Notes under the pieces: generated by a model
The model's input: only the letters and a program-made list of their open reading frames with translations
The model's database searches: none
Told to the model about the DNA's origin: nothing
Virus record (IMG/VR): IMGVR_UViG_3300028837_000518
Coordinates: 1-64,000 of that record
Direction: 5' to 3' (one strand)
Length of the DNA stretch: 64,000 nucleotides
Source of the DNA: a virus
Program-made: the position numbers and the translations under genes
Shown here: positions 3,782 to 48,699 of the stretch, piece after piece
How positions within the stretch are numbered: position 1 is the stretch's first letter
Layout: every line of letters begins with the position of its first letter

Positions 3782-5247
3782 TATTCTCGTAGCCTCGTAG
3801 AGAACTCTATGTTCGTCATAAGAATAGTACCGCCATCAGTAACTTGAATGATCTTCTTAGTAACAGATGTTATAAAAACCGTTACAGCAATTTTATCACC
3901 GCTATCCCAGTCGCCACGCCCGCTTATCACCCAGTGACGAATATCATAAATGTCGCGGACTTTCGACTTGATCTTAAAGTATTGTCCGCTTCGCCAACCC
4001 GTCATAGTAGTAGTGTTAGAGGGTTCGTAGATGCTAAAGCCCCCTGAAATTAGTGGCCACGCATGAGAATCAAGCAGCATATTGCCATAGAACTCTATGG
4101 GGTCATAGCCGGTATCTGACGGGCTATCTATACGATAATCAGGGAGACTAATCATTACTTGGTGTTCACCGTCAGAGCCTTCACGCCTTGCCATTTCATT
4201 AATCGAATCAGGGTCCATAAAGACGGCAACACGGTCGGGAATTGCGTAATCGAAGGATACTTTAACGTAGTCACCACTTGCTGGCATATCAGTAGTGGGA
4301 AAGCGTACTCCCCAATTCATCACGCATACATAGGCGTAATTTGCTTGACCCTCAATAGACTCTGCACTTCCATCCAGCGGGTCAAGCGCTAGAGTTTTTG
4401 TTACCCATTCATCCTCACCATGTTTAGTTTCCACCGTCATATCAACTTCATTCATTGGTGGCATGGGGAGCTTAAAGAATGACTGTGCGCCATCAGCGAG
4501 AACATTATGTTCATATGCATTATCACTCTGTTGCGCATAGTCTTTTATGATTACTACATTAAAGAGACTAGAGACGTCTTCTGTTACCGTTACACCACCT
4601 ATCTCAAGGTTTGCATCAAGGTCGAGTATGTTGCTATATGTTCCATTATTCAGCGGCGAAGCATTGGCGGATACATCACTATCAGGAAAGAAATAAATCT
4701 TTGGTCGCCCTGCTACAGATGCGTCGAAACCTACATACCATGCATATCCAGTAGCTTCTGATAAACGGTCAAAGATACCTGACGCGGGCTCGTAGTCATA
4801 ACCTTCTTTGGGAACGTCAAGACCAGTTGCAATATTATCATCCCAGTTACTATAGTCTGTAAAGTCCGGTGCAAACTCCTGAAGAATGGTCTTGATTCGC
4901 GTGCCGGCTGCACCCTCAGCATATTCCTGTTTAGCGACGAGTCGGCGATCAAGAAAAGCTGTATAATCCGAAACAATAACATTTACAAGCATAGTCTCGG
5001 GATTCTGAAAAGAATCATCAGTTGTAGCAACAACACCTTCAAACTCTCGAGTACTATCTATAATCAAAACCACTACATTGCCAGGCTTGGGCTTTGCCAC
5101 AGTTTCCGCATCCAAATCAGCCCAGGGAATATACATATCGAACTCTAGGCTATCCCCCATAGAAGCAGCGCCATCCTGAATAGATATAGTCGGAATGTTA
5201 ACGTAGGCTGTTACATCAACGTTATCAAGCTCTATAGCTACACCCAT
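3781..5247 (-). CDS. tail hub / distal tail protein
   Basis: 488 aa acidic protein immediately after the tape measure gene. Confidence 0.6.
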   Translation of the reverse strand: MGVAIELDNVDVTAYVNIPTISIQDGAASMGDSLEFDMYIPWADLDAETVAKPKPGNVVVLIIDSTREFEGVVATTDDSFQNPETMLVNVIVSDYTAFLDRRLVAKQEYAEGAAGTRIKTILQEFAPDFTDYSNWDDNIATGLDVPKEGYDYEPASGIFDRLSEATGYAWYVGFDASVAGRPKIYFFPDSDVSANASPLNNGTYSNILDLDANLEIGGVTVTEDVSSLFNVVIIKDYAQQSDNAYEHNVLADGAQSFFKLPMPPMNEVDMTVETKHGEDEWVTKTLALDPLDGSAESIEGQANYAYVCVMNWGVRFPTTDMPASGDYVKVSFDYAIPDRVAVFMDPDSINEMARREGSDGEHQVMISLPDYRIDSPSDTGYDPIEFYGNMLLDSHAWPLISGGFSIYEPSNTTTMTGWRSGQYFKIKSKVRDIYDIRHWVISGRGDWDSGDKIAVTVFITSVTKKIIQVTDGGTILMTNIEFSTRLRE

Positions 5248-8200
5248 CTACCTAACTCCTGAAACTGCATGTCGTCTGCGCAGCTTACGCATAAGTTCAA
5301 CTGAGACTAGGTCAGCCACTTCACGTATTCCCCCAGCACCTACAATAGTATTTCCAGTTACGAAAACATTAACTTCTTGCCCGGCAGCCCGTGTATTCTG
5401 TAGCGGACTAAATGTGAAGGCCTCCGCACCTCTTTCGCCTGCCAAGAAGAGTGTCGGCTTACGAACAATACCACTGCCACCGCGTTGCATTGGCGTTATA
5501 GGGATTACCTCGCCAGTTGTGTCAATCTTAGCTTTAATAACTATATCACCAATACCTTTTAGGAGAGCTTTTCTAATTTTCTTGCCTACTTCTTCCAAGC
5601 TTGTTAGCAAGCTTTCAAGGTTCGTTTCTATACCGGCTTGAAGCTCAGACATTAGATTCACACCCCATGCATTAGAATCAAGGGCTGTAGTAAATAATCC
5701 TATTATGTCATCACGAATTCCTGTTAGAACAGGGTATAATGATTGCTCTGCGTAACCAGCTTTGACACCTTTTTCATAGGCATTCATAAGACCCTCGCCC
5801 CAAGATGATGCATCTAAGTCAGAAGATAACGAAGATTCTATTCCATCCTCTACTTTTGCTAAACCGAGTATTTGTCTCACCGCAAGTGTAGGAAGAACAC
5901 CTAGCGGGAACTCCCATATGAATGCTATGGGAATTTTTAATAGGTTTGCCGGTGTTATTTCACTCAAAAACTCATTCCACGCCTCCTTGACTTTCTCCCA
6001 GGTATCCGCAAAATCAGATTTAAGTGCTTCACGATAATCCTCGTCAAGGGCGAATCTAATAGTAGCATATATTGTTAGTGCTGCCTCAAGGGTAAGGACG
6101 AGGGCAAGGAGGGCAACGGGAGCTTTTAGTAGAACGGGAGTTCCAGCAAAGGCTGCTATAAGAGCATCTTTTATACTTGTAAGGAGATTTGCGGTAAGAG
6201 CTATTGGGTACGACATAGCAATTCTAAGTAATATTAACGATAGAACGGTCTCTATAGGGTGCTCGTCAATCCAGGCCCAAATTTCTTCTTCAACAAACTT
6301 ATTCCAAGTCTCCTGCATCTTCTTAGGCGCGAACGCATTAATGAGAACATGAACAACACCAAGGACAATGGCAGCACCTATAGCACCTATAATAGCGGCT
6401 TTAATTGCAACACCAGCAGCATAAATAACAAAGTGTGCAGCACGCATAATAAGGTGAAATGTTCCACTGGCAAGCTTTAAGGACCACTCAAGCCCAGCCT
6501 TAGCTAAGGTAATTGCAGATTGTACAGCCCACCATAGCCCGGCAATTGTTGCAATAGCCGTTGCAGTAATAGCAATTGAGGTTAGAACGGGATGTTCTTC
6601 CATCCATGCCTTTGTCTCGGGAGAGTTTAACCACTCTGAAGCTGAGTTCCAAAGAGATTGTACTAGGCCCTTTAGAAAGTTCCATACGAAAGCAAGAAAA
6701 ATACCAATAGGGTTTTCCTCAAAGAACTCTTTAAGCGCTGGCTTTACTGTCTCATTCCACCACTTCTTAATAGCCGGACCAATATTTAAGATAAAGCCCT
6801 TGATACTAACCCAGGCATTGCGAAAAGCATCTAAAAGTTCTTTAGGGATAAGCTTACGCAACATATCACTGATTGGCTTGAGTAATCTACCGAACCATGC
6901 AAAGACCTTGCCAAGACTGCGTACTAACCCAAGCATCCATCGCAATCCATGCACACAAAGACGCATGAACTTAAGGAAAAGCCAGAGAGCTGCCACTACA
7001 CTCTTGCGTATAATGTCGGCTAGCATTTGAATCTCAGGCGCAAACTCCTTTAGTGTATCATCCATTAACTTAAGGGTGCCGCGCCAGTGCGAAAGTACAT
7101 CCTCAGACGCCCAAAGAGCGCGCGCAAGCGTAACTAGTGTTGTTGCAAAGTTAGCCAACTTTACCAGCAGTGGTCCAAAGAACTGCTTCCAAATCGGATA
7201 GAGCATGATACGCGTAGTGGCCAGTAGGCTCTCGCGAATCCTGCGAAGGGAAAATGTTGTACTTTGAGATACATCCTCGTAAACTTTCCCGTAGCGCTGC
7301 ATAATTTTCATTTGAATGAATTGTGCTACGGCAGTACGGTTCGTAGTATCTACCATACTTTTATTAACGTGAATGCCGATACGGTGTAGTGACTTCAGGC
7401 TAGCACTCTCAGCGCCCACAGCGCCGGTAAAAATCCGCGAAGCCTCCTCAACTTTAACGCCGAGTGCTGTAGCCAAAACTCCCATGGTATCAACAACTTC
7501 ATTAGAGCCAAGGCCGGCCTTAGTTAGAATATCCATCGACTTAGTAAGGTCATCAAGCGTTGTTCCGTACTTAATTGCCTTCATCTGCGCATAGACAAAC
7601 ATCTTTCCAGCTTCAGCTAGATTGGTAGAAAGTCCACGAAGTTTGTTGATTGCCTCCTCTACAGTAGTGCCGGTATCGCGTATAGCTTTACTTAGGCCCA
7701 AGAAAGCTTTTGTCAAACCACCTACAGTGATAGCGAGTGCTGCTGTAACCAGGGCAATTTTCGGTATGCTAAATCCGAGAAAAGCAAAAGAGTAAAGCAG
7801 TCCACGAATATTACCCTGAAGTGCGTTCATTGACAAGATGAGACCTTGCATAACCGACGACATCGGTCGCAACCTTGCAACTGTTTCCCAAATCTGGTTC
7901 TTAATATAACGGAATCCACGCGCACTATTACCAACAGCACCACTAAGGTCTGAAGTGGCTTTCGTGCTAGTTACAGCGGCTCTCGTAGATTCGTCTAGTG
8001 CCTGTGAGTGTTCAAGGATTGTACGTATTGTACCTTGTAGGGACTTACGAAATGCCTCGGTTCGCGTTGCATTCGCTTGTGTGGCTGTCCCCAATTGCAT
8101 AGTATTGGCCGCCGCACCTAATCCCTGTTTTCCCAGGCCCTCCAATTGTGGCAAAAGCGCAGCAATTTCATAAGCCATTTTATTTAGTGCGGCTGGCGTA

Positions 8201-43498: not shown

Positions 43499-43526
43499 CT
43501 ACTCGCTCATCCTGCTTGCAAGTCCT

Positions 43527-43572
43527 AACCGTAGACTACACCACGCCATGGTGCGGTCTGCGGTTTTTTTTG
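43527..43572 (+). terminator. rho-independent terminator
   Basis: AACCGTAGACTACACCA/TGGTGCGGTCTGCGGTT stem followed by a T8 run. Confidence 0.75.
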
Positions 43573-43638
43573 TACCGTTCTTTTTTTTGGTGTTCACTAT
43601 TAGATATATTTGTAACTTCATAGTAACCGCGAATTGAC

Positions 43639-44286
43639 ATGCAGAGAAACTTCTCATTCATTGCCAACTCAAATACTTTAGAGTTTCTAGCGCGTGTAGT
43701 AGCGGTTATTCGAGAGGATGACGCCTGGATTAGTAAGCGCAGAAAGCGCGAAGTGATACCCTGGGCTACAGTCACTGCCGACCGCGCAATGCGTTATACA
43801 GGAGTACTATTCCCTCATGACTGGGACCTTGCTTGGCAAGCTATCTCATGGTGTCGCGAGGTAATGGGAAAGAGAGAAGATGTTAATGACTATGAAGTGA
43901 ACCTACTCTTTTCTGTTATGGATGATAACTTTCCACATGAACAGCGCGCACTTCTGGCCAGCCTCATTCCTAAGTTTTACCGCGAGGGTGGCAGCACTGA
44001 CAGTATACATCTTGGCTCCGTTGCTATACGACAGTACTTCGACTACCTAAAACTAGAATGCACGCTGCCTATAGATACGGTTTGGGGTCATGGATATGTA
44101 TACCGATTCTCTGACTCTGATAGTAATGTACTCATTTGGTCAACAAGTAGTAAAAAACTGGATACTGGTTTAGTTTATGCCGGCAGATGTACCGTTAAAG
44201 CACATCGAGAAGTGCATGGTATTTGCAGTACTATTTTGACGCGATGCGCAATATCTGAATGTGGCAGCGATATAGTCCGAGCTTGA
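43639..44286 (+). CDS. hypothetical protein with C-terminal OB-like domain
   Basis: HLGSV...YRFSD..SNVLIW...TVKAH...TILTRC pattern. Confidence 0.5.
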   Translation: MQRNFSFIANSNTLEFLARVVAVIREDDAWISKRRKREVIPWATVTADRAMRYTGVLFPHDWDLAWQAISWCREVMGKREDVNDYEVNLLFSVMDDNFPHEQRALLASLIPKFYREGGSTDSIHLGSVAIRQYFDYLKLECTLPIDTVWGHGYVYRFSDSDSNVLIWSTSSKKLDTGLVYAGRCTVKAHREVHGICSTILTRCAISECGSDIVRA

Positions 44287-44343
44287 CCAATTATCCTTAT
44301 CGTCTTTTGCTGTCTTTTACGGCCTACCACTGCGGGTTGGGAT

Positions 44344-44372
44344 TTGACAAGACGTAGAATCTATGCTACAAT
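44344..44372 (+). promoter_or_regulatory. sigma70 promoter heading the Y RNA/tRNA/Ro60 unit
   Basis: TTGACA-17 nt-TACAAT with TGn extension. Confidence 0.8.
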
Positions 44373-44436
44373 TTTCGGCGCATAATTGCGTGTGCAGGTG
44401 AAACTCCTACGGAAAACACAAATCCAGGAGGCAGTA

Positions 44437-45120
44437 ATGAAGTTCAATAATTTTTCCCTTAGAGTTATCGGAGGGCGCGAGAAAGCAAGTGGTTATGTTG
44501 AGATAACGCATGGCCAGCAATACTCGCTATCCATGCGTAACTTCGATAGTTTACCATGTGATGCAAAAGTAGTAATAGGTGATGTGCATATCGGCACCTG
44601 GCGTATTAGAGGCAATCGCTCCATCATCATTGAGCGGCCAGTAAATGACCAGGGTCGGTTCACCTTCTATAAGGTTGGTTCGAGTGAAGCTGAGAAGATA
44701 GGTGCTACACCGGGTGCGTCCCGTAACGGCCTAATCACGGTTACATTCACGCCAGAAATACCAAAGCCCGTACAACTTATCTACCCCCATCATTCATATA
44801 ACGACCCTTGGCGATGGCGGCCACGATATGATAGTAATTGGCTCTTTTCCTGTGGTTCGAGTACAGGTGGTGGTAGCGTACAGTCGCAGCTGCGGGGCAG
44901 CCCTGTCAGCTTTGGTGATACTCCCGTTACTGCTGATTCGTATGAAGAGGGTGTTTCTGGTCTTTCAGGATATAGTGATCAAAGATTCACCCGCGTTGCA
45001 CCACTTGACTACGATCTAACACGACAGACAACAATATCTTTGCGACTAGTCTGTAGTGACATCAGGGGGGAACCACGACCGCTAGTTTCTTGCGGTAATC
45101 CAGTCCCTCCGCCAGTATAG
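44437..45120 (+). CDS. beta-sandwich hypothetical protein
   Basis: RBS AGGAGG before ATG 44437; beta-rich N-domain, low-complexity linker, Pro-rich end. Confidence 0.65.
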   Translation: MKFNNFSLRVIGGREKASGYVEITHGQQYSLSMRNFDSLPCDAKVVIGDVHIGTWRIRGNRSIIIERPVNDQGRFTFYKVGSSEAEKIGATPGASRNGLITVTFTPEIPKPVQLIYPHHSYNDPWRWRPRYDSNWLFSCGSSTGGGSVQSQLRGSPVSFGDTPVTADSYEEGVSGLSGYSDQRFTRVAPLDYDLTRQTTISLRLVCSDIRGEPRPLVSCGNPVPPPV

Positions 45121-45151
45121 ATATTCTTTAGTTTCTACTGCACACGCAACA

Positions 45152-45214
45152 CGTCTGGGTCGCCGATTGCTGGTTACCACTTAAATGTTCCAGTAATCAC
45201 GAACTTATCCGGCG
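45152..45214 (+). ncRNA. Y RNA-like RNA 1
   Basis: Lower stem CGTCTGGGT/ATCCGGCG (one bulge), GGTCG..CTTATC, upper stem GATTGCTGG/CCAGTAATC, then TTACC. Confidence 0.65.
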
Positions 45215-45322
45215 CTTACTTTAAACACCACACCGAGCTAGTATTTCTAAAGAAACCGTGCGATCTTTGATTCTAAGATCAAAGATTCTACAACTTCTAA
45301 GTGACAGTCTTGGTGTTGGTAC

Positions 45323-45423
45323 GGGTTGGGTCGAAGTATGTCGGTTATCATACATAGTAATAGCATGGGTAAGAGTACGGCTCTACCATGCCCAAACTCG
45401 ACATACATTCCCTTATCCAATCC
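45323..45423 (+). ncRNA. Y RNA-like RNA 2
   Basis: GGGTTGGGT/ATCCAATCC, CGAA, GTATGTCG/CGACATAC, GTTATC, internal hairpin. Confidence 0.8.
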
Positions 45424-45440
45424 ATAATACTTAAATTGTT

Positions 45441-45499
45441 GGCTAGGTCGAAGTATGCTGGTTATCCTCTATGATCCCGGCTACAATCCTTATCTAGCC
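45441..45499 (+). ncRNA. Y RNA-like RNA 3 (minimal, 59 nt)
   Basis: GGCTAGGT/ATCTAGCC, CGAA, GTATGCTGG/CCGGCTAC, TTATC loop. Confidence 0.8.
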
Positions 45500-45502
45500 T
45501 TT

Positions 45503-45575
45503 AGGTAAATAGCTCAGTTGGTAGAGCACTTCTTTTACAAAGAAGAGATCGCAGGTTCGAGTCCTGCTTTGCCTA
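45503..45575 (+). tRNA. tRNA-Val(TAC)
   Basis: AGGTAAA/TTTGCCT acceptor, CTTCT-TTTACAA-AGAAG anticodon arm, GCAGG-TTCGAGT-CCTGC; followed by CTA, not CCA. Confidence 0.92.
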
Positions 45576-45586
45576 CTAAAACTTAA

Positions 45587-45693
45587 TAGATTAGGTCGAA
45601 GAGTATCGGTTATCAAGGCAAGCCGAGAGGTTGGTCTGGTGAGCCAGACTTAACATCGGTTATGAAAACGATCTCACAAACTTATCTAATCTA
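45587..45693 (+). ncRNA. Y RNA-like RNA 4
   Basis: TAGATTAGGT/ATCTAATCTA, CGAA, GAGTATCG/CGATCTC, GTTATC, long internal hairpin. Confidence 0.8.
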
Positions 45694-45696
45694 CAT

Positions 45697-45768
45697 GGGG
45701 GCGTAGCTTAACGGGAAAGCACCTCTTTTGCAAGGAGGGTACTGGAGGTTCAATTCCTCCCGTCTCCA
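45697..45768 (+). tRNA. tRNA-Ala(TGC)
   Basis: GGGGGCG/CGTCTCC with G3:U70, CCTCT-TTTGCAA-GGAGG, GGAGG-TTCAATT-CCTCC. Confidence 0.92.
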
Positions 45769-45771
45769 CCT

Positions 45772-45834
45772 CTTGGGTCGAATGCATTGGGTTATTCAAG
45801 GTGAAAACTTCCCAACGCAGTTAACTTATCCAAG
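45772..45834 (+). ncRNA. Y RNA-like RNA 5
   Basis: CTTGGGT/ATCCAAG, CGAA, TGCATTGGG/CCCAACGCA (one mismatch), TTATT, CTTATC. Confidence 0.78.
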
Positions 45835-45843
45835 TAATAATAT

Positions 45844-45916
45844 GCGGGAGTAGCTCAGTTGGTAGAGCATCGCCTTGCCAGGGCGAGGGTCACGAGTTCG
45901 AGTCTCGTTTTCCGCT
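45844..45916 (+). tRNA. tRNA-Gly(GCC)
   Basis: GCGGGAG/TTTCCGC, TCGCC-TTGCCAG-GGCGA, ACGAG-TTCGAGT-CTCGT, U73. Confidence 0.92.
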
Positions 45917-45925
45917 TATGTTGTT

Positions 45926-46004
45926 AAGCCGGGTCGAGTTCAGTGGGTTATTGTGTATAATAATCCTTGTGTGTGTTTTCCCACTGGAAAAGTTAACCTG
46001 GCTT
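45926..46004 (+). ncRNA. Y RNA-like RNA 6
   Basis: AAGCCGGGT/ACCTGGCTT, CGAG, TTCAGTGGG/CCCACTGGA, TTATT. Confidence 0.72.
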
Positions 46005-46051
46005 TTATCTCTCTGGGACGCTTTTCCATCCACCACTACTAGGAGGTTATA

Positions 46052-47752
46052 ATGAGCAATTACGGCCAACACTTCTCTACACAGCAAACCGTCCAGACCG
46101 AGCCCATCCCAGGAAAAGATATGGGAGAAAACTTGGCTGGTGGTTATGCATTCAAGATTGATAAGTGGGCAAGACTTCAGCGTTTTCTTATCCTCGGCGC
46201 GGAAGGCACCTACTATGCTAGCGGTCAAGCAATGACCATTGATAATGCTAACGTAGTAGTGGATTGTATTCGGGAAGATGGCCGGCGAGTGGTAGATAGT
46301 ATTGTTACTACCTCACAAGAGGGTCGTGCGCCCAAGAATGACTCAGCACTATTTGCCCTTCTCATGTGTATGACACCAGACTTTGCCAATCTTGCAACTC
46401 GCCAAGCAGCATTTGCTGCTCTTCCTGCAGTTGCACGAATTGGTACGCACCTATTTAAGTTCTGCTCTGAGGTTGACTCAATGCGGGGTTGGGGACGTGG
46501 GCTACGACGCGCACTCTCTAGGTGGTACAACTCTAAAGCTCCTGCTCGCCTTGCATACCAAGTTGTAAAGTATCAGCAGCGGCATGGCTGGACCCACAGA
46601 GATGTATTGCGCAAGGCTCACCCAGTCCCCTTATCGGATGCGCACAAGATTATCTATCACTACATAACTCAAAAGGAGCTACCATGTAGTCTCGCGCAGA
46701 CAGAGGGTGGTGTGGATATGTTGTATGCCTTCGAGTCTATCAAACGGGCCGAGAGTGTTAATCAGGCCACACAACTAATCCGTGAATTCAGACTTCCTCG
46801 CGAGGCAGTGCCAACTCGATTCTTGAATGATAGTGCTATTTGGCAAGCACTACTAGAATCTATGCCTATGACCGCCATGATTCGCAACCTTGCCAAGATG
46901 ACCAGTATTGGTCTACTTGCTCCCTTGTCGTTCGCAGCTAACTTTGTAGTAAAGCAATTAGGTAATGCAGATTATCTGAGACGCGCACGCGTTCACCCAT
47001 TCTCTGTATTTCTTGCGTTGCGAACCTACGCGATGGGTTGCGGTATTCGTGGTAAGCTTCGGTGGGAACCAGTACCTGCCATAGTAGATGCGCTTGACAA
47101 GGCTTTTTACTTGTGTTTTGATAATGTTGAGCCAACTGGAAAGCGTATAGTAATCGGCGTTGATGTCTCGGGTAGCATGAGTGCGCCGATACTCGCTGAT
47201 CCTAATACACAATTCATGGTACCGGGGCCACCATCAGTCCTGGAGGCCGCTGCTGCAATTGCGTTAGTTACTAACGCTGTGGAACCCAATAGTACTATAG
47301 TAGCATTCTCGCATGATATAGTACCAATCACTATTACACCGCGCCAGCGGATTGATAACCTTTGCAACGAGCTACGCGGCCTACCAATGGGCAATACAGA
47401 CTGTGCTCTACCCATGCTTTGGGCGCTAGGTTATGCGCCCGATGTACGTGGTGGTATTCACAGATGGTTCCGTCACCCCTGCGATTATAAGAAAGTTAGG
47501 GACAACGTTATCGAGGCTGATGTTTTCATAGTAATTACCGACAACGAGACTTGGTTTGGCAAGATACACCCTGTGCAGGCACTAAACAAGTATCGAAAGC
47601 AAACAGGTATTGACGCCAAGCTAGTTGTTCTCGCTATGACCTCTACCGGATTTTCTATAGCTGACCCCAATGATTCTGGAATGCTTGATATTTGTGGTAT
47701 GGATAGCGCTGTTCCCACACTTATCTCTGACTTTATAAGTGGCAGAGTTTAG
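46052..47752 (+). CDS. rsr: Ro60/Rsr RNA-binding protein (TROVE plus vWA domains)
   Basis: NLAGGYAF...LQRFLILG.EGTYY, GWGRGLRRA, YQVVKYQQRHGWTHRD, MPMTAMIRNL, RVHP, MIDAS DVSGSM, TDCALPM, TDNETW, SIADPND.GMLD; RBS AGGAGG. Confidence 0.95.
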   Translation: MSNYGQHFSTQQTVQTEPIPGKDMGENLAGGYAFKIDKWARLQRFLILGAEGTYYASGQAMTIDNANVVVDCIREDGRRVVDSIVTTSQEGRAPKNDSALFALLMCMTPDFANLATRQAAFAALPAVARIGTHLFKFCSEVDSMRGWGRGLRRALSRWYNSKAPARLAYQVVKYQQRHGWTHRDVLRKAHPVPLSDAHKIIYHYITQKELPCSLAQTEGGVDMLYAFESIKRAESVNQATQLIREFRLPREAVPTRFLNDSAIWQALLESMPMTAMIRNLAKMTSIGLLAPLSFAANFVVKQLGNADYLRRARVHPFSVFLALRTYAMGCGIRGKLRWEPVPAIVDALDKAFYLCFDNVEPTGKRIVIGVDVSGSMSAPILADPNTQFMVPGPPSVLEAAAAIALVTNAVEPNSTIVAFSHDIVPITITPRQRIDNLCNELRGLPMGNTDCALPMLWALGYAPDVRGGIHRWFRHPCDYKKVRDNVIEADVFIVITDNETWFGKIHPVQALNKYRKQTGIDAKLVVLAMTSTGFSIADPNDSGMLDICGMDSAVPTLISDFISGRV

Positions 47753-47753
47753 C

Positions 47754-48209
47754 ATGAGCGAGGCGGAAAGACTTGAGGCTCTAATAGATCAGTTAGCAGA
47801 GCTAAGAGATATGGTGCACTTTCTTCAAAGTGCCGAAGACGATGCGAAAGCAACGCTAGAGCAAGTACAAGAATACCAAATCTATAACAATATAGTAGAT
47901 GGGCGCAAAAAGCTAAAGCGACAGGTTAAAGAACACGAAGTAGTAATACGTAACTTAGTTGTTAAAGTCTTTAGTGAAACAGGCATAAGGTATCCGGGGA
48001 CAGGTCGTGCATATATTCAAATGGTTAAGACTTGTGTCTACGACGAAACCAATATTCATGCCTGGTGTGTCGAACGCGCCCCCGGCTTTCTCAATCTTAA
48101 TACTAGAGCAATTGAGAAAGCAGCAAAGTCGGGTGCAAATGGTATGCCTATAGAAGTTACTGTAGTTCCGCGCGGTTATATCAAGGGCAAGCTAGATGTC
48201 CCGGCCTAA
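47754..48209 (+). CDS. coiled-coil phage protein (Gp157/Gam-like, tentative)
   Basis: Heptad N-half and beta C-half; directly after rsr. Confidence 0.4.
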   Translation: MSEAERLEALIDQLAELRDMVHFLQSAEDDAKATLEQVQEYQIYNNIVDGRKKLKRQVKEHEVVIRNLVVKVFSETGIRYPGTGRAYIQMVKTCVYDETNIHAWCVERAPGFLNLNTRAIEKAAKSGANGMPIEVTVVPRGYIKGKLDVPA

Positions 48210-48699
48210 TACACCAAGCTTTTGGACAACAACACATACTACCAGTGAAAAGGACGAGTGGGAAACACCGCGAAGTCTCGTTAGCTACTTAGCACAGTAC
48301 TTTTCCTGGGACCTTGATGTGTGTGCGAGTCGAGCAAATGTCTGCGAGACCTTTCTTACTAAGGCCGATAACGCCCTAAGTTGTAGTTGGACGGGACTGT
48401 GCTGGAATAACCCACCATACGGAAAAGAGATGCGTCGGTGGATTGCTAAAGCAAAACACGCTGCGCAGTCCCCCGGCACTACAGTAGTCTGTCTAGTGCC
48501 GGCTCGCACCGATACTAAGTGGTGGCATCACAACGTTCCTGAAGCAAGCTTGGTAGTTTTCTTAAAGGGTCGACTTAGCTTTGAACTAGATAACATTGGG
48601 CAACCCGCACCATTCCCATCAGCTATAATAGTGTTTGGTCCACTAAGTGAACTACAGAAAAATGTTCTAAAACACATGGGCTGGTCACCACTAGGATAG
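48196..48699 (+). CDS. phage DNA N6-adenine methyltransferase
   Basis: DEWETP, LDVCAS, NPPYG, LVPARTDTKWW, F.KGRL.F, APFPS. Confidence 0.9.
   Translation: MSRPNTPSFWTTTHTTSEKDEWETPRSLVSYLAQYFSWDLDVCASRANVCETFLTKADNALSCSWTGLCWNNPPYGKEMRRWIAKAKHAAQSPGTTVVCLVPARTDTKWWHHNVPEASLVVFLKGRLSFELDNIGQPAPFPSAIIVFGPLSELQKNVLKHMGWSPLG

What the first reader, a model, noticed from the sequence alone, without database searches (positions are those of the whole stretch)
45441..46004. tRNA punctuation of the Y RNA array
The order is Y3-tRNAVal-Y4-tRNAAla-Y5-tRNAGly-Y6 with spacers of only 3-11 nt. Host RNase P and 3' tRNA processing would release the Y RNAs from one precursor. Bacterial YrlA RNAs fuse a Ro-binding stem to a tRNA-like domain; here the two modules are adjacent but separate, a possible split or ancestral form. 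The tRNAs keep identity elements (Ala G3:U70, Gly U73), lack encoded CCA, and all read GNN codons.
Basis: partly seen in the sequence, partly recalled or inferred. Interest (0 to 1): 0.7.

Follow-up and report, generated by a model that had tools for sequence, protein, structure and literature searches.

The report
tRNAs interleaved with phage Y RNAs
A complete 109-kb uncultured phage carries six small "Y RNA" partner genes for its own Ro60 protein, the last four alternating with three real tRNA genes only 3-11 bases apart, so ordinary tRNA trimming should cut the Y RNAs free; the same layout recurs in other phages, some of them cultured.

Summary
Val(TAC), Ala(TGC) and Gly(GCC) tRNAs alternate with Y3-Y6, with spacers of 3, 11, 3, 3, 9 and 9 nt, directly upstream of a TROVE+vWA Ro60 gene.

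The whole 109-kb genome holds exactly six Y-like stems, all in this array. One strong promoter-like site lies upstream. No promoter-like or terminator-like site lies inside the array.

A covariance model built from the six copies found 168 matches in 88 Ro60 loci, all on the Ro60 strand. The closing stem covaries strongly.

Y RNAs abutting tRNAs recur in at least 15 other loci. Gordonia phage Forza shows a full alternation: tmRNA-Y-tRNA-Y-tRNA-YrlA-tRNA-Y-tRNA.

Best reading: one precursor, in which tRNA maturation (RNase P, RNase Z/BN) automatically frees Y3-Y6.

tRNAs are not obligatory. Y1-Y3, many tRNA-free arrays and the closest relative lack them.

The "split or ancestral YrlA" idea has no support. 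No RNA data exist.

I found no paper describing this layout. Earlier notes of this scan report similar arrays on other phage DNA. Verdict: a new variant of the known phage Ro60/Y RNA module, of moderate interest.

The parts
44344..44372 (+). sigma-70-like promoter (TTGACA, 17 nt, TG-TACAAT), the likely start of the whole unit
   Evidence: 11 of 12 matches plus an extended -10 TG. It is the only + strand promoter-like site in 43500-48500.
44386..44405 (+). 5' arm of a long-range stem; it pairs with 45130-45149
   Evidence: pair I1: 20 nt, 90% complementary, 724 nt apart. My estimate of the chance expectation in this 1.8-kb stretch is about 0.003.
44438..45120 (+). ORF of unknown function enclosed by the long-range stem. 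I infer an ATG start at 44438 behind AGGAGG; the ORF list gives a TTG start at 44386.
   Evidence: No Pfam or PHROG family.
45130..45149 (+). 3' arm of the long-range stem; it ends 2 nt before Y1
45152..45214 (+). Y1, a Y RNA-like stem with a variant motif (GGGTCGCCGA)
   Evidence: R1 50 bits, R2 31 bits, fold.
45323..45423 (+). Y2, a Y RNA-like stem (GTCGAAG, GGTTATC, CTTATCC) with a hairpin insert
   Evidence: R1 63 bits, R2 55 bits. Fold z-score -3.55.
45441..45502 (+). Y3, the smallest Y RNA-like stem. It ends in UUU directly at the first base of tRNA-Val.
   Evidence: R1 48.6 bits. Fold z-score -2.6. Sequence.
45503..45575 (+). tRNA-Val(TAC): A73 discriminator, no CCA, U at -1
   Evidence: (75.3 bits).
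45587..45693 (+). Y4, a Y RNA-like stem with a long apical insert
   Evidence: R1 57.7 bits. Fold z-score -3.65.
45697..45770 (+). tRNA-Ala(TGC): G3:U70, A73 at 45768, then an encoded CC (45769-45770), U at -1
   Evidence: (64.4 bits).
45772..45834 (+). Y5, a Y RNA-like stem (GTCGAATG)
   Evidence: R1 51.3 bits, R2 44.8 bits. Fold.
45844..45916 (+). tRNA-Gly(GCC): U73, no CCA, U at -1
   Evidence: (63.6 bits).
45926..46004 (+). Y6, a Y RNA-like stem and the copy most like animal Y RNA
   Evidence: R1 65.4 bits. Rfam Y_RNA RF00019 29.9 bits, E 0.0025, below the gathering score of 38. Fold z-score -4.26.
46052..47752 (+). Ro60 gene (TROVE ring plus vWA domain); AGGAGG ribosome-binding site 47 nt after Y6
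   Evidence: PF05731 8e-42, PF25045 2e-57.

Best explanation
The stretch from about 44380 to at least 47752 is one transcription unit of a tailed phage. Its order is promoter, a small ORF clamped by a long-range stem, then Y1, Y2, Y3, tRNA-Val, Y4, tRNA-Ala, Y5, tRNA-Gly, Y6, then Ro60.

The six Y RNAs are the phage's own partners for its Ro60 ring. Each is a 5'/3' closing stem that carries the Ro-docking motif under a different apical insert.

The three tRNAs are genuine decoders of common phage codons. Because they must be matured, host RNase P cuts at each tRNA 5' end. That cut leaves Y3, Y4 and Y5 with 3' tails of 3, 3 and 9 nt. The host 3' tRNA pathway (RNase Z/BN for genes without CCA, or endonuclease plus exonuclease trimming) cuts behind each discriminator. 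That cut leaves Y4, Y5 and Y6 with 5' leaders of 11, 3 and 9 nt. Y3-Y6 are thus released as a by-product of tRNA maturation.

In effect, a Y RNA occupies a slot in a phage tRNA operon as if it were a tRNA: a closed helix of similar size with the same spacing.

Y1-Y3 need other cuts. Candidates are an RNase III-type cut at the long-range stem 2 nt before Y1, and RNase E/J or exonuclease trimming up to the Ro-protected stems.

Shown: the anatomy, the family membership of the parts, and the recurrence of the layout. Inferred: co-transcription, the enzymes, and Ro60 binding.
For: - tRNAs score 64-75 bits and have complete cloverleaves.
- The phage holds six Y copies and no others.
- Closing-stem covariation over 56 phage Y hits: 96.8% of cells paired, 148 double-change cells, 0 of 500 shuffles as high, and a collapse when the partner is slid by 1 column.
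- All 168 R2 matches lie on the Ro60 strand.
- Ro60 has TROVE and vWA domains.
- There is one 11/12 promoter match upstream, and no + strand promoter-like or terminator-like site inside the array.
- U stands at -1 of all three tRNAs.
- The tRNAs read GUA (33% of Val codons), GCA (32% of Ala) and GGY (66% of Gly).
- Spacers match those usual in phage arrays: tRNA-tRNA mostly 1-13 nt, Y-Y mostly 4-20 nt.
- Abutting Y/tRNA junctions occur in L031, L036, L064, L083; L007, L054, L080, Jay2Jay, Karp; and L115, L121, L123, L130, L172.
- Gordonia phage Forza shows a full alternation.
- tRNAs lie on the Ro60 strand in 23 of 82 IMG/VR loci and 38 of 80 metagenome loci.
- Precedent: M. smegmatis YrlA and YrlB come from one precursor, and YrlA is cut by RNase P (PMC4201824).
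Against: - There is no RNA evidence of any kind, and the host is unknown.
- The promoter and terminator scans assume sigma-70-type signals.
- Half of the array (Y1|Y2|Y3) has no tRNA.
- Many phages have tight Y-Y arrays without tRNAs, for example L087 with eight copies.
- The closest relative, L099 (Ro60 53% identical), has two Y RNAs and no tRNA within 2.5 kb. tRNAs are therefore dispensable for Y maturation in general.
- Only 3 unpaired nt separate the Y3 and Y4 stems from the RNase P site. Bound Ro60 could slow cleavage there.
- tRNA-Ala is followed by CC, which from my knowledge of B. subtilis RNase Z counteracts that enzyme. The 3' route at that junction is unclear.
Confidence: 0.68

Rival explanations
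1. Incidental neighbours. The Ro60/Y module simply sits in the phage's small-RNA gene region. The Y RNAs are matured by general RNases, or by exonuclease trimming up to the Ro60-protected stem, as in tRNA-free arrays. The tRNAs serve translation only, and the interleaving is a by-product of recombination or duplication without selective value.
For: Y-Y junctions of 4-20 nt without tRNAs are common. Y1|Y2|Y3 here lack tRNAs. The closest relative, L099, has no nearby tRNA. Short repeats link Y2/Y5 and Y1/Y4 flanks, which suggests local duplication (D4 and D6). The tRNAs match frequent phage codons.
Against: If the genes are co-transcribed, tRNA maturation must cut at these sites anyway. The two readings therefore differ only in whether the cuts matter. 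Abutment within 0-11 nt recurs independently in at least 15 loci with Ro60 proteins only 33-50% identical to this one, including full alternations (Forza, L031) and single Y RNAs wedged between two tRNAs (L115, L121, L130).
Confidence: 0.2
2. Bipartite YrlA analogue, the first reader's 'split form'. Y-tRNA dimers persist uncut, with bound Ro60 masking the RNase P site 3 nt away. The tRNA part would then act like the tRNA-like domain of YrlA.
For: The leaders between the Y3 and Y4 stems and the tRNA are only 3 nt. YrlA-type RNAs combine a Ro stem with a tRNA-like body (PMC4201824). L080 has a Ro stem enclosing a full D/anticodon/T body.
Against: The topology differs: side by side here, nested in YrlA. 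The tRNAs have intact 7-bp acceptor stems, U at -1 and proper identity elements, and so look like ordinary substrates. tRNA-tRNA spacers of 1-7 nt are processed routinely in such arrays. Forza holds a real YrlA next to the same junctions.
Confidence: 0.07
3. Each Y RNA (and tRNA) has its own promoter and terminator and matures independently.
For: None found. The host's promoter type is unknown, so the scan could miss non-sigma-70 signals.
Against: The spacers are 3-11 nt. There is no + strand promoter-like or terminator-like site in 44373-48500. All units share one strand and the density of an operon.
Confidence: 0.03

Closest known systems
Phage and bacterial Ro60 (Rsr) with Y RNAs: Thermus phage phiLo Yrl1/Yrl2 (PMC12135203); M. 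smegmatis YrlA/YrlB, D. radiodurans Yrn1, and YrlA in 22 phages (PMC4201824)
   Same: The Ro60 gene has Y-like RNAs on the same strand just upstream. The RNAs share a 5'/3' closing stem with the GNCGAA-type motif. In M. smegmatis several Y RNAs come from one precursor, and RNase P is involved.
   Different: Here there are six copies, all without a tRNA-like domain. Genuine tRNA genes stand between them. That survey discarded matches overlapping annotated tandem tRNA genes, so this layout would not have been recorded.
Metazoan Y RNAs (Rfam RF00019) and nematode stem-bulge RNAs (RF01656)
   Same: The 5' strand GGCUAGGUCGAAGUAUGCUGGUUAUC closely resembles what I recall of the start of human Y1 (from memory; I did not align the two). 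The closing stem has a bulge, and the tail is U-rich. Y6 scores 29.9 bits on RF00019. Related phage copies in L083 pass the RF01656 gathering score.
   Different: These copies score below the curated threshold. They lie in a bacterial-type operon, not in pol III units. Their ends would be set by RNA processing, not by a terminator.
tRNA punctuation and tRNA-linked processing: mitochondrial polycistrons (PMC3790967), E. coli polycistronic tRNA operons separated by RNase P (PMC4176162, PMC2190699), and T4 small RNAs RNAC/RNAD from the tRNA region (PMC3014915)
   Same: tRNA structures embedded in a precursor are the cleavage marks that free neighbouring RNAs. In T4, small stable RNAs of unknown role share the phage tRNA transcription unit.
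   Different: The released RNAs here are recognisable Y RNAs with a cognate protein gene in the same unit. No processing data exist for this phage.
Phage Bas63 gp130 (Ro60-like) upstream of its tRNA stretch (preprint PMC11482910)
   Same: A Ro60-like gene heads a tRNA array. The authors guess that some annotated tRNAs are really Y RNAs.
   Different: That proposal names no Y elements. Here the Y RNAs are delineated and are distinct from the tRNAs.

Membership tests
Y RNA (Ro60-binding ncRNA) | Stem formed by the 5' and 3' ends, supported by covariation | tested here: met
   Folds. 96.8% of cells paired, 7 of 8 pairs with double changes, 0 of 500 shuffles as high. One caveat: the alignment was fitted to the model.
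Y RNA (Ro60-binding ncRNA) | Conserved docking motif in the 5' strand (GNCGAAN0-1G in bacteria, GGUCCGA in animals), next to a bulge or internal loop | tested here: met
   Exact in Y2-Y5. Variant in Y1 (CGCCGA) and Y6 (CGAG).
Y RNA (Ro60-binding ncRNA) | Encoded beside, and on the strand of, a Ro60 gene | tested here: met
   The array ends 47 nt before Ro60. All 168 related matches lie on the Ro60 strand.
Y RNA (Ro60-binding ncRNA) | Reaches the Rfam RF00019 gathering score | tested here: not met
   Only Y6 matches, at 29.9 bits against a threshold of 38. That model is built from animal sequences.
Y RNA (Ro60-binding ncRNA) | Physically bound by Ro60 | not testable with these tools
   Needs RIP or EMSA.
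YrlA (Rfam RF02553) | tRNA-like domain (T-arm and D-arm) nested inside the Ro-binding stem | tested here: not met
   No RF02553 match at E<=10 in 44000-47000, whereas the same library finds YrlA in Forza. None of the six copies has a T-loop or D-arm motif.
tRNA | Cloverleaf above the curated score, standard anticodon loop, identity elements | tested here: met
   75.3, 64.4 and 63.6 bits against 29. Ala G3:U70, Gly U73, Val A73 (alignments).
tRNA-punctuated precursor | The units are co-transcribed | tested here: inconclusive
   Only consensus scans are available: one promoter-like site upstream and none inside, with no terminator-like site. No RNA run is listed.
tRNA-punctuated precursor | Cleavage by RNase P and RNase Z at the tRNA ends yields the neighbouring RNAs' ends | not testable with these tools
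   Indirect only: U at -1 in 3 of 3 tRNAs, no full CCA encoded, abutting junctions.
tRNA-punctuated precursor | The layout recurs in independent lineages | tested here: met
   At least 15 other loci, including the cultured phages Forza, Jay2Jay and Karp.
Ro60 / Rsr | TROVE HEAT-repeat ring plus a C-terminal vWA domain | tested here: met
   PF05731 8.4e-42 and PF25045 1.9e-57. 40-44% identical to the annotated Ro-like proteins of the best-matching actinophages, 32-37% to the more distant ones.

The most novel reading that the evidence does not exclude
The link between Y RNAs and tRNAs in phages is functional and not only a processing convenience. Ro60/Y particles would be made in step with phage tRNAs because they act on tRNAs, for example in quality control, protection, or repair-coupled turnover of tRNAs hit by host anticodon nucleases. 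Y-tRNA precursors could even serve as assembly or delivery intermediates. This would make the Ro60/Y/tRNA cassette a counter-defence or translation-maintenance module.
Probability: 0.15. Interest if true: 0.8.

Novelty: new variant of a known kind. Interest (0 to 1): 0.5.

Why it matters
Phage Ro60 proteins and their Y RNAs are known, but how Y RNA ends are made in bacteria and phages is largely unstudied. What these particles do during infection is open too.

A Y RNA array whose members are separated by real tRNAs gives a simple, testable maturation rule: tRNA enzymes set the ends. It also shows that Y RNAs are regular residents of phage tRNA operons.

That has practical consequences. tRNA-cluster "gaps", and some odd "tRNA" calls in deposited phage genomes (Forza, Jay2Jay, Karp), are likely Y RNAs. 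Surveys that discard hits near tandem tRNAs will have missed them.

The same design exists in cultured actinophages, so the idea can be tested at the bench now. The frequent strand-matched pairing of Ro60 with tRNA clusters (about 38% of 162 loci) also hints that tRNAs may be the particle's business.

Tried and rejected
The contigs behind the closest Ro60 proteins were reached through the search for related loci instead.
- No RNA holder is listed among the public runs. The reads laid were DNA contigs only and showed no variation within the phage's own contigs, so they gave neither covariation nor RNA ends.
- A fixed-spacing motif search was uninformative: 4 hits against 4 expected.
- My first Python stem descriptor was far too unspecific and was dropped in favour of covariance models.
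- blastn of the array against phage records hit only the tRNAs.
- Models R1 and R2 miss the divergent actinophage Y RNAs. The Forza copies were found by folding the tRNA gaps, so counts of Y/tRNA junctions are lower bounds.
- The gaps between tRNAs in L007 (3754-3826, 3901-4000), and two L130 gaps, are not Y-like.
- 'All read GNN codons' was rejected as a signal. GNN is 34% of the phage's codons and Val, Ala and Gly are among its commonest residues.
- The 20-nt complementarity between the Y2 insert and tRNA-Val (I3) is within what chance gives for 8-nt seeds in 1.8 kb.
- One review (PMC10870794) is not held.

Full report
**What the window is**

The window is the first 64 kb of a complete 109,319-bp virus record with direct terminal repeats. 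It encodes terminase, portal, head protease/major head and tail proteins, so it is a tailed phage. The same DNA is held by marine-sediment and subsurface metagenome runs from three studies.

**Observation**

ARAGORN finds five tRNAs in the whole genome, three of them in the flagged stretch:
- Val(TAC) at 45503-45575
- Ala(TGC) at 45697-45768, followed by an encoded CC
- Gly(GCC) at 45844-45916

Rfam's tRNA model scores them at 75.3, 64.4 and 63.6 bits against a gathering score of 29. The alignments show Ala G3:U70, Gly U73 and Val A73.

Between and before the tRNAs lie six hairpin-closed elements (fold; alignment):
- Y1 45152-45214
- Y2 45323-45423
- Y3 45441-45499 plus UUU
- Y4 45587-45693
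- Y5 45772-45834
- Y6 45926-46004

All six share GGTCG and GGTTA on the 5' strand and TTA.C on the 3' strand. The motif GGTCGA(4-12)GGTTAT occurs five times against 0.04 expected.

The spacers read off the sequence are 3, 11, 3, 3, 9 and 9 nt.

Error-free contigs from other runs bridge every junction, so the array is not an assembly chimera (records 9 and 12 of X7; records 17, 18 and 19 of X8).

**What the Y elements are**

A Ro60 gene follows 47 nt after Y6, at 46052-47752. It carries TROVE (8e-42) and Ro60-vWA (2e-57) domains. It is 32-44% identical to the Ro-like proteins annotated in about 350 actinophage records.

Y2-Y5 carry the bacterial Y RNA motif GNCGAAN0-1G exactly. Y1 and Y6 carry variants (motif from PMC4201824).

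Y6 matches Rfam's animal Y_RNA model at 29.9 bits, below the threshold of 38.

I built covariance model R1 from the six copies, using the closing stem only. On 82 IMG/VR Ro60 loci plus the window it found 96 matches. All were on the Ro60 strand, and nearly all lay within about 700 nt upstream of Ro60 or just downstream of it.

On 56 of these matches the closing stem pairs in 96.8% of cells, with 148 double-change cells. None of 500 shuffles reached this, and the signal collapses when the partner is slid by one column.

The broader model R2 gave 168 matches on 88 sources, again all on the Ro60 strand. In the phage's whole genome it finds exactly the six copies.

None of the six has a T-loop or D-arm. 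Rfam YrlA (RF02553) gives no match here at E<=10, although the same library detects a YrlA in phage Forza.

These are therefore plain Y RNA-like partners of the phage's Ro60, not YrlA.

**Transcription unit (inferred)**

The only + strand promoter-like site in 43500-48500 is at 44344-44372, with 11 of 12 matches plus TG. No terminator-like site lies on the + strand. Spacers of 3-11 nt leave no room for promoters.

A 20-nt inverted repeat with 18 of 20 complementary bases joins 44386-44405, a few bases after the expected start, to 45130-45149, which ends 2 nt before Y1. It encloses an ORF of unknown function; I read its start as the ATG at 44438 behind AGGAGG. This looks like an RNase III-type processing stem that would separate the ORF mRNA from the RNA array.

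**Mechanism**

If the array is one transcript, maturation of the three tRNAs necessarily cuts it.

RNase P would cut at 45502/45503, 45696/45697 and 45843/45844. That leaves Y3, Y4 and Y5 with tails of 3, 3 and 9 nt.

The 3' pathway for tRNAs without an encoded CCA would cut behind 45575, 45768 and 45916. From my own knowledge, this is RNase Z/BN, the route first known from T4 tRNAs. It leaves Y4, Y5 and Y6 with leaders of 11, 3 and 9 nt.

All three tRNAs have U at -1, the base bacterial RNase P prefers (the preference is from my own knowledge).

The tRNAs also look like working decoders. They read GUA (33% of Val codons), GCA (32% of Ala) and GGY (66% of Gly).

Within phage arrays, tRNA-tRNA spacers are mostly 1-13 nt and Y-Y spacers mostly 4-20 nt. 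A Y RNA thus occupies a slot much as a tRNA does: a closed helix of similar size with the same spacing.

**Recurrence**

tRNAs lie on the Ro60 strand near the gene in 23 of 82 IMG/VR loci, where 101 of 102 tRNAs share its strand. The same is true in 38 of 80 metagenome loci, where all tRNAs share its strand.

Y RNAs abut tRNAs within 0-11 nt in the following loci:
- L031, with tRNA-Trp, Y, tRNA-Ala, Y
- L036, L064 and L083
- L007, L054 and L080
- Streptomyces phages Jay2Jay and Karp
- L115, L121 and L130, each with a Y RNA wedged between two tRNAs
- L123 and L172

Gordonia phage Forza has Ro60 heading its tRNA cluster. There the order is tmRNA, Y, tRNA-Arg, a Y with a T-arm, tRNA-Gln, YrlA (RF02553, 52 bits, E 5.5e-10), tRNA-Ile, Y, tRNA-Met.

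These phages have Ro60 proteins only 33-50% identical to this one. The design is therefore either old or has arisen repeatedly.

**Limits**

- There are no RNA data. No RNA run is listed.
- Y1|Y2|Y3 here have no tRNA between them.
- Many arrays have none either; L087, for example, has eight Y RNAs in a row.
- The closest relative is L099, a 108.8-kb contig with Ro60 53% identical. It has two Y RNAs directly upstream of Ro60 and no tRNA within 2.5 kb.

tRNAs are thus a sufficient and recurrent way to free Y RNAs, but not a necessary one.

The "split or ancestral YrlA" idea finds no support. The topology is side by side rather than nested, and fused and unfused forms coexist in Forza.

The GNN observation is true but weak, because GNN is 34% of the phage's codons.

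**Literature**

Known from the papers I could read:
- Phage Ro60 with upstream Y-like RNAs is established for phiLo (PMC12135203) and for 22 phages (PMC4201824).
- M. smegmatis YrlA and YrlB come from one precursor, and YrlA is cut by RNase P.
- That survey discarded matches overlapping annotated tandem tRNA genes.
- A preprint notes a Ro60-like gene ahead of the Bas63 tRNA stretch and guesses that some of those tRNAs are Y RNAs (PMC11482910).
- T4 makes two small RNAs of unknown role from its tRNA region (PMC3014915).

Five full-text searches found no paper describing Y RNAs alternating with genuine tRNAs.

Earlier notes of this scan describe similar Y arrays among tRNAs in other phage genomes. 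They agree with my own comparison, but I did not check them on their own DNA.

**Verdict**

The processing interpretation is well supported by anatomy and recurrence, but remains an inference. The evolutionary interpretation is not supported. I rate this a new variant of a known kind, of moderate interest, and directly testable in cultured actinophages.

Noticed in passing
window 44386-44405 and 45130-45149: A 20-nt inverted repeat (18 of 20 complementary), 724 nt apart. It encloses the ORF ahead of the array and ends 2 nt before Y1. It is a likely RNase III-type processing stem that would set the 5' side of Y1.
   Followed up: partly
window 45263-45290 and 44977-44988: A short palindromic hairpin (ATCTTTGAT / ATCAAAGAT) lies in the 108-nt gap between Y1 and Y2. 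Its half-site GATCAAAGATTC also occurs exactly inside the upstream ORF (D7). It could be a processing site or a protein-binding site.
   Followed up: no
window 45369-45388 vs 45519-45538: The apical insert of Y2 is 80% complementary over 20 nt to the D-arm and anticodon-stem region of tRNA-Val. The core is antisense to UGGUAGAGC, which tRNA-Gly also carries. This is probably chance at this seed length.
   Followed up: no
window 45769-45770: tRNA-Ala is followed by CC and then T, a partial CCA, with only one further base before the Y5 stem. The other two tRNAs encode no part of CCA.
   Followed up: no
L089 (Gordonia phage Forza NC_070763) 4893-5531: The record annotates a 68-nt 'tRNA-Gln' at 5040-5107. 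That stretch is the inside of a Ro-stem RNA carrying a T-arm (5037-5169). Three more unannotated Y/YrlA RNAs fill the gaps between the neighbouring tRNAs and the tmRNA.
   Followed up: partly
L080 1347-1495: A Ro-type closing stem encloses a complete tRNA-like body in normal D / anticodon / T order, 7 nt ahead of tRNA-Arg. In the one YrlA I read (Forza) the T-arm precedes the D-arm, consistent with the tandem-tRNA caveat in PMC4201824, so this wiring is different.
   Followed up: no
L083 2407-2480 and 2752-2875: Two phage Y RNAs pass the Rfam gathering score of the nematode sRNA family RF01656 (ceN72-3_ceN74-2; from memory these are stem-bulge RNAs, the worm Y RNA homologues), at 43.0 and 41.1 bits against 38.
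   Followed up: no
L062 6881-6942; L108 1028-1098: L062 has a 62-nt acceptor-stem plus T-arm mini-helix between two tRNAs. L108 has a 71-nt 'tRNA-Leu' call, too short for a Leu tRNA, that the Y model also matches. These are possible further tRNA/Y hybrids.
   Followed up: no
L087 2119-2929: Eight Y-like RNAs stand head to tail with spacers of about 3-20 nt directly upstream of Ro60. This is the largest tRNA-free array I saw.
   Followed up: no
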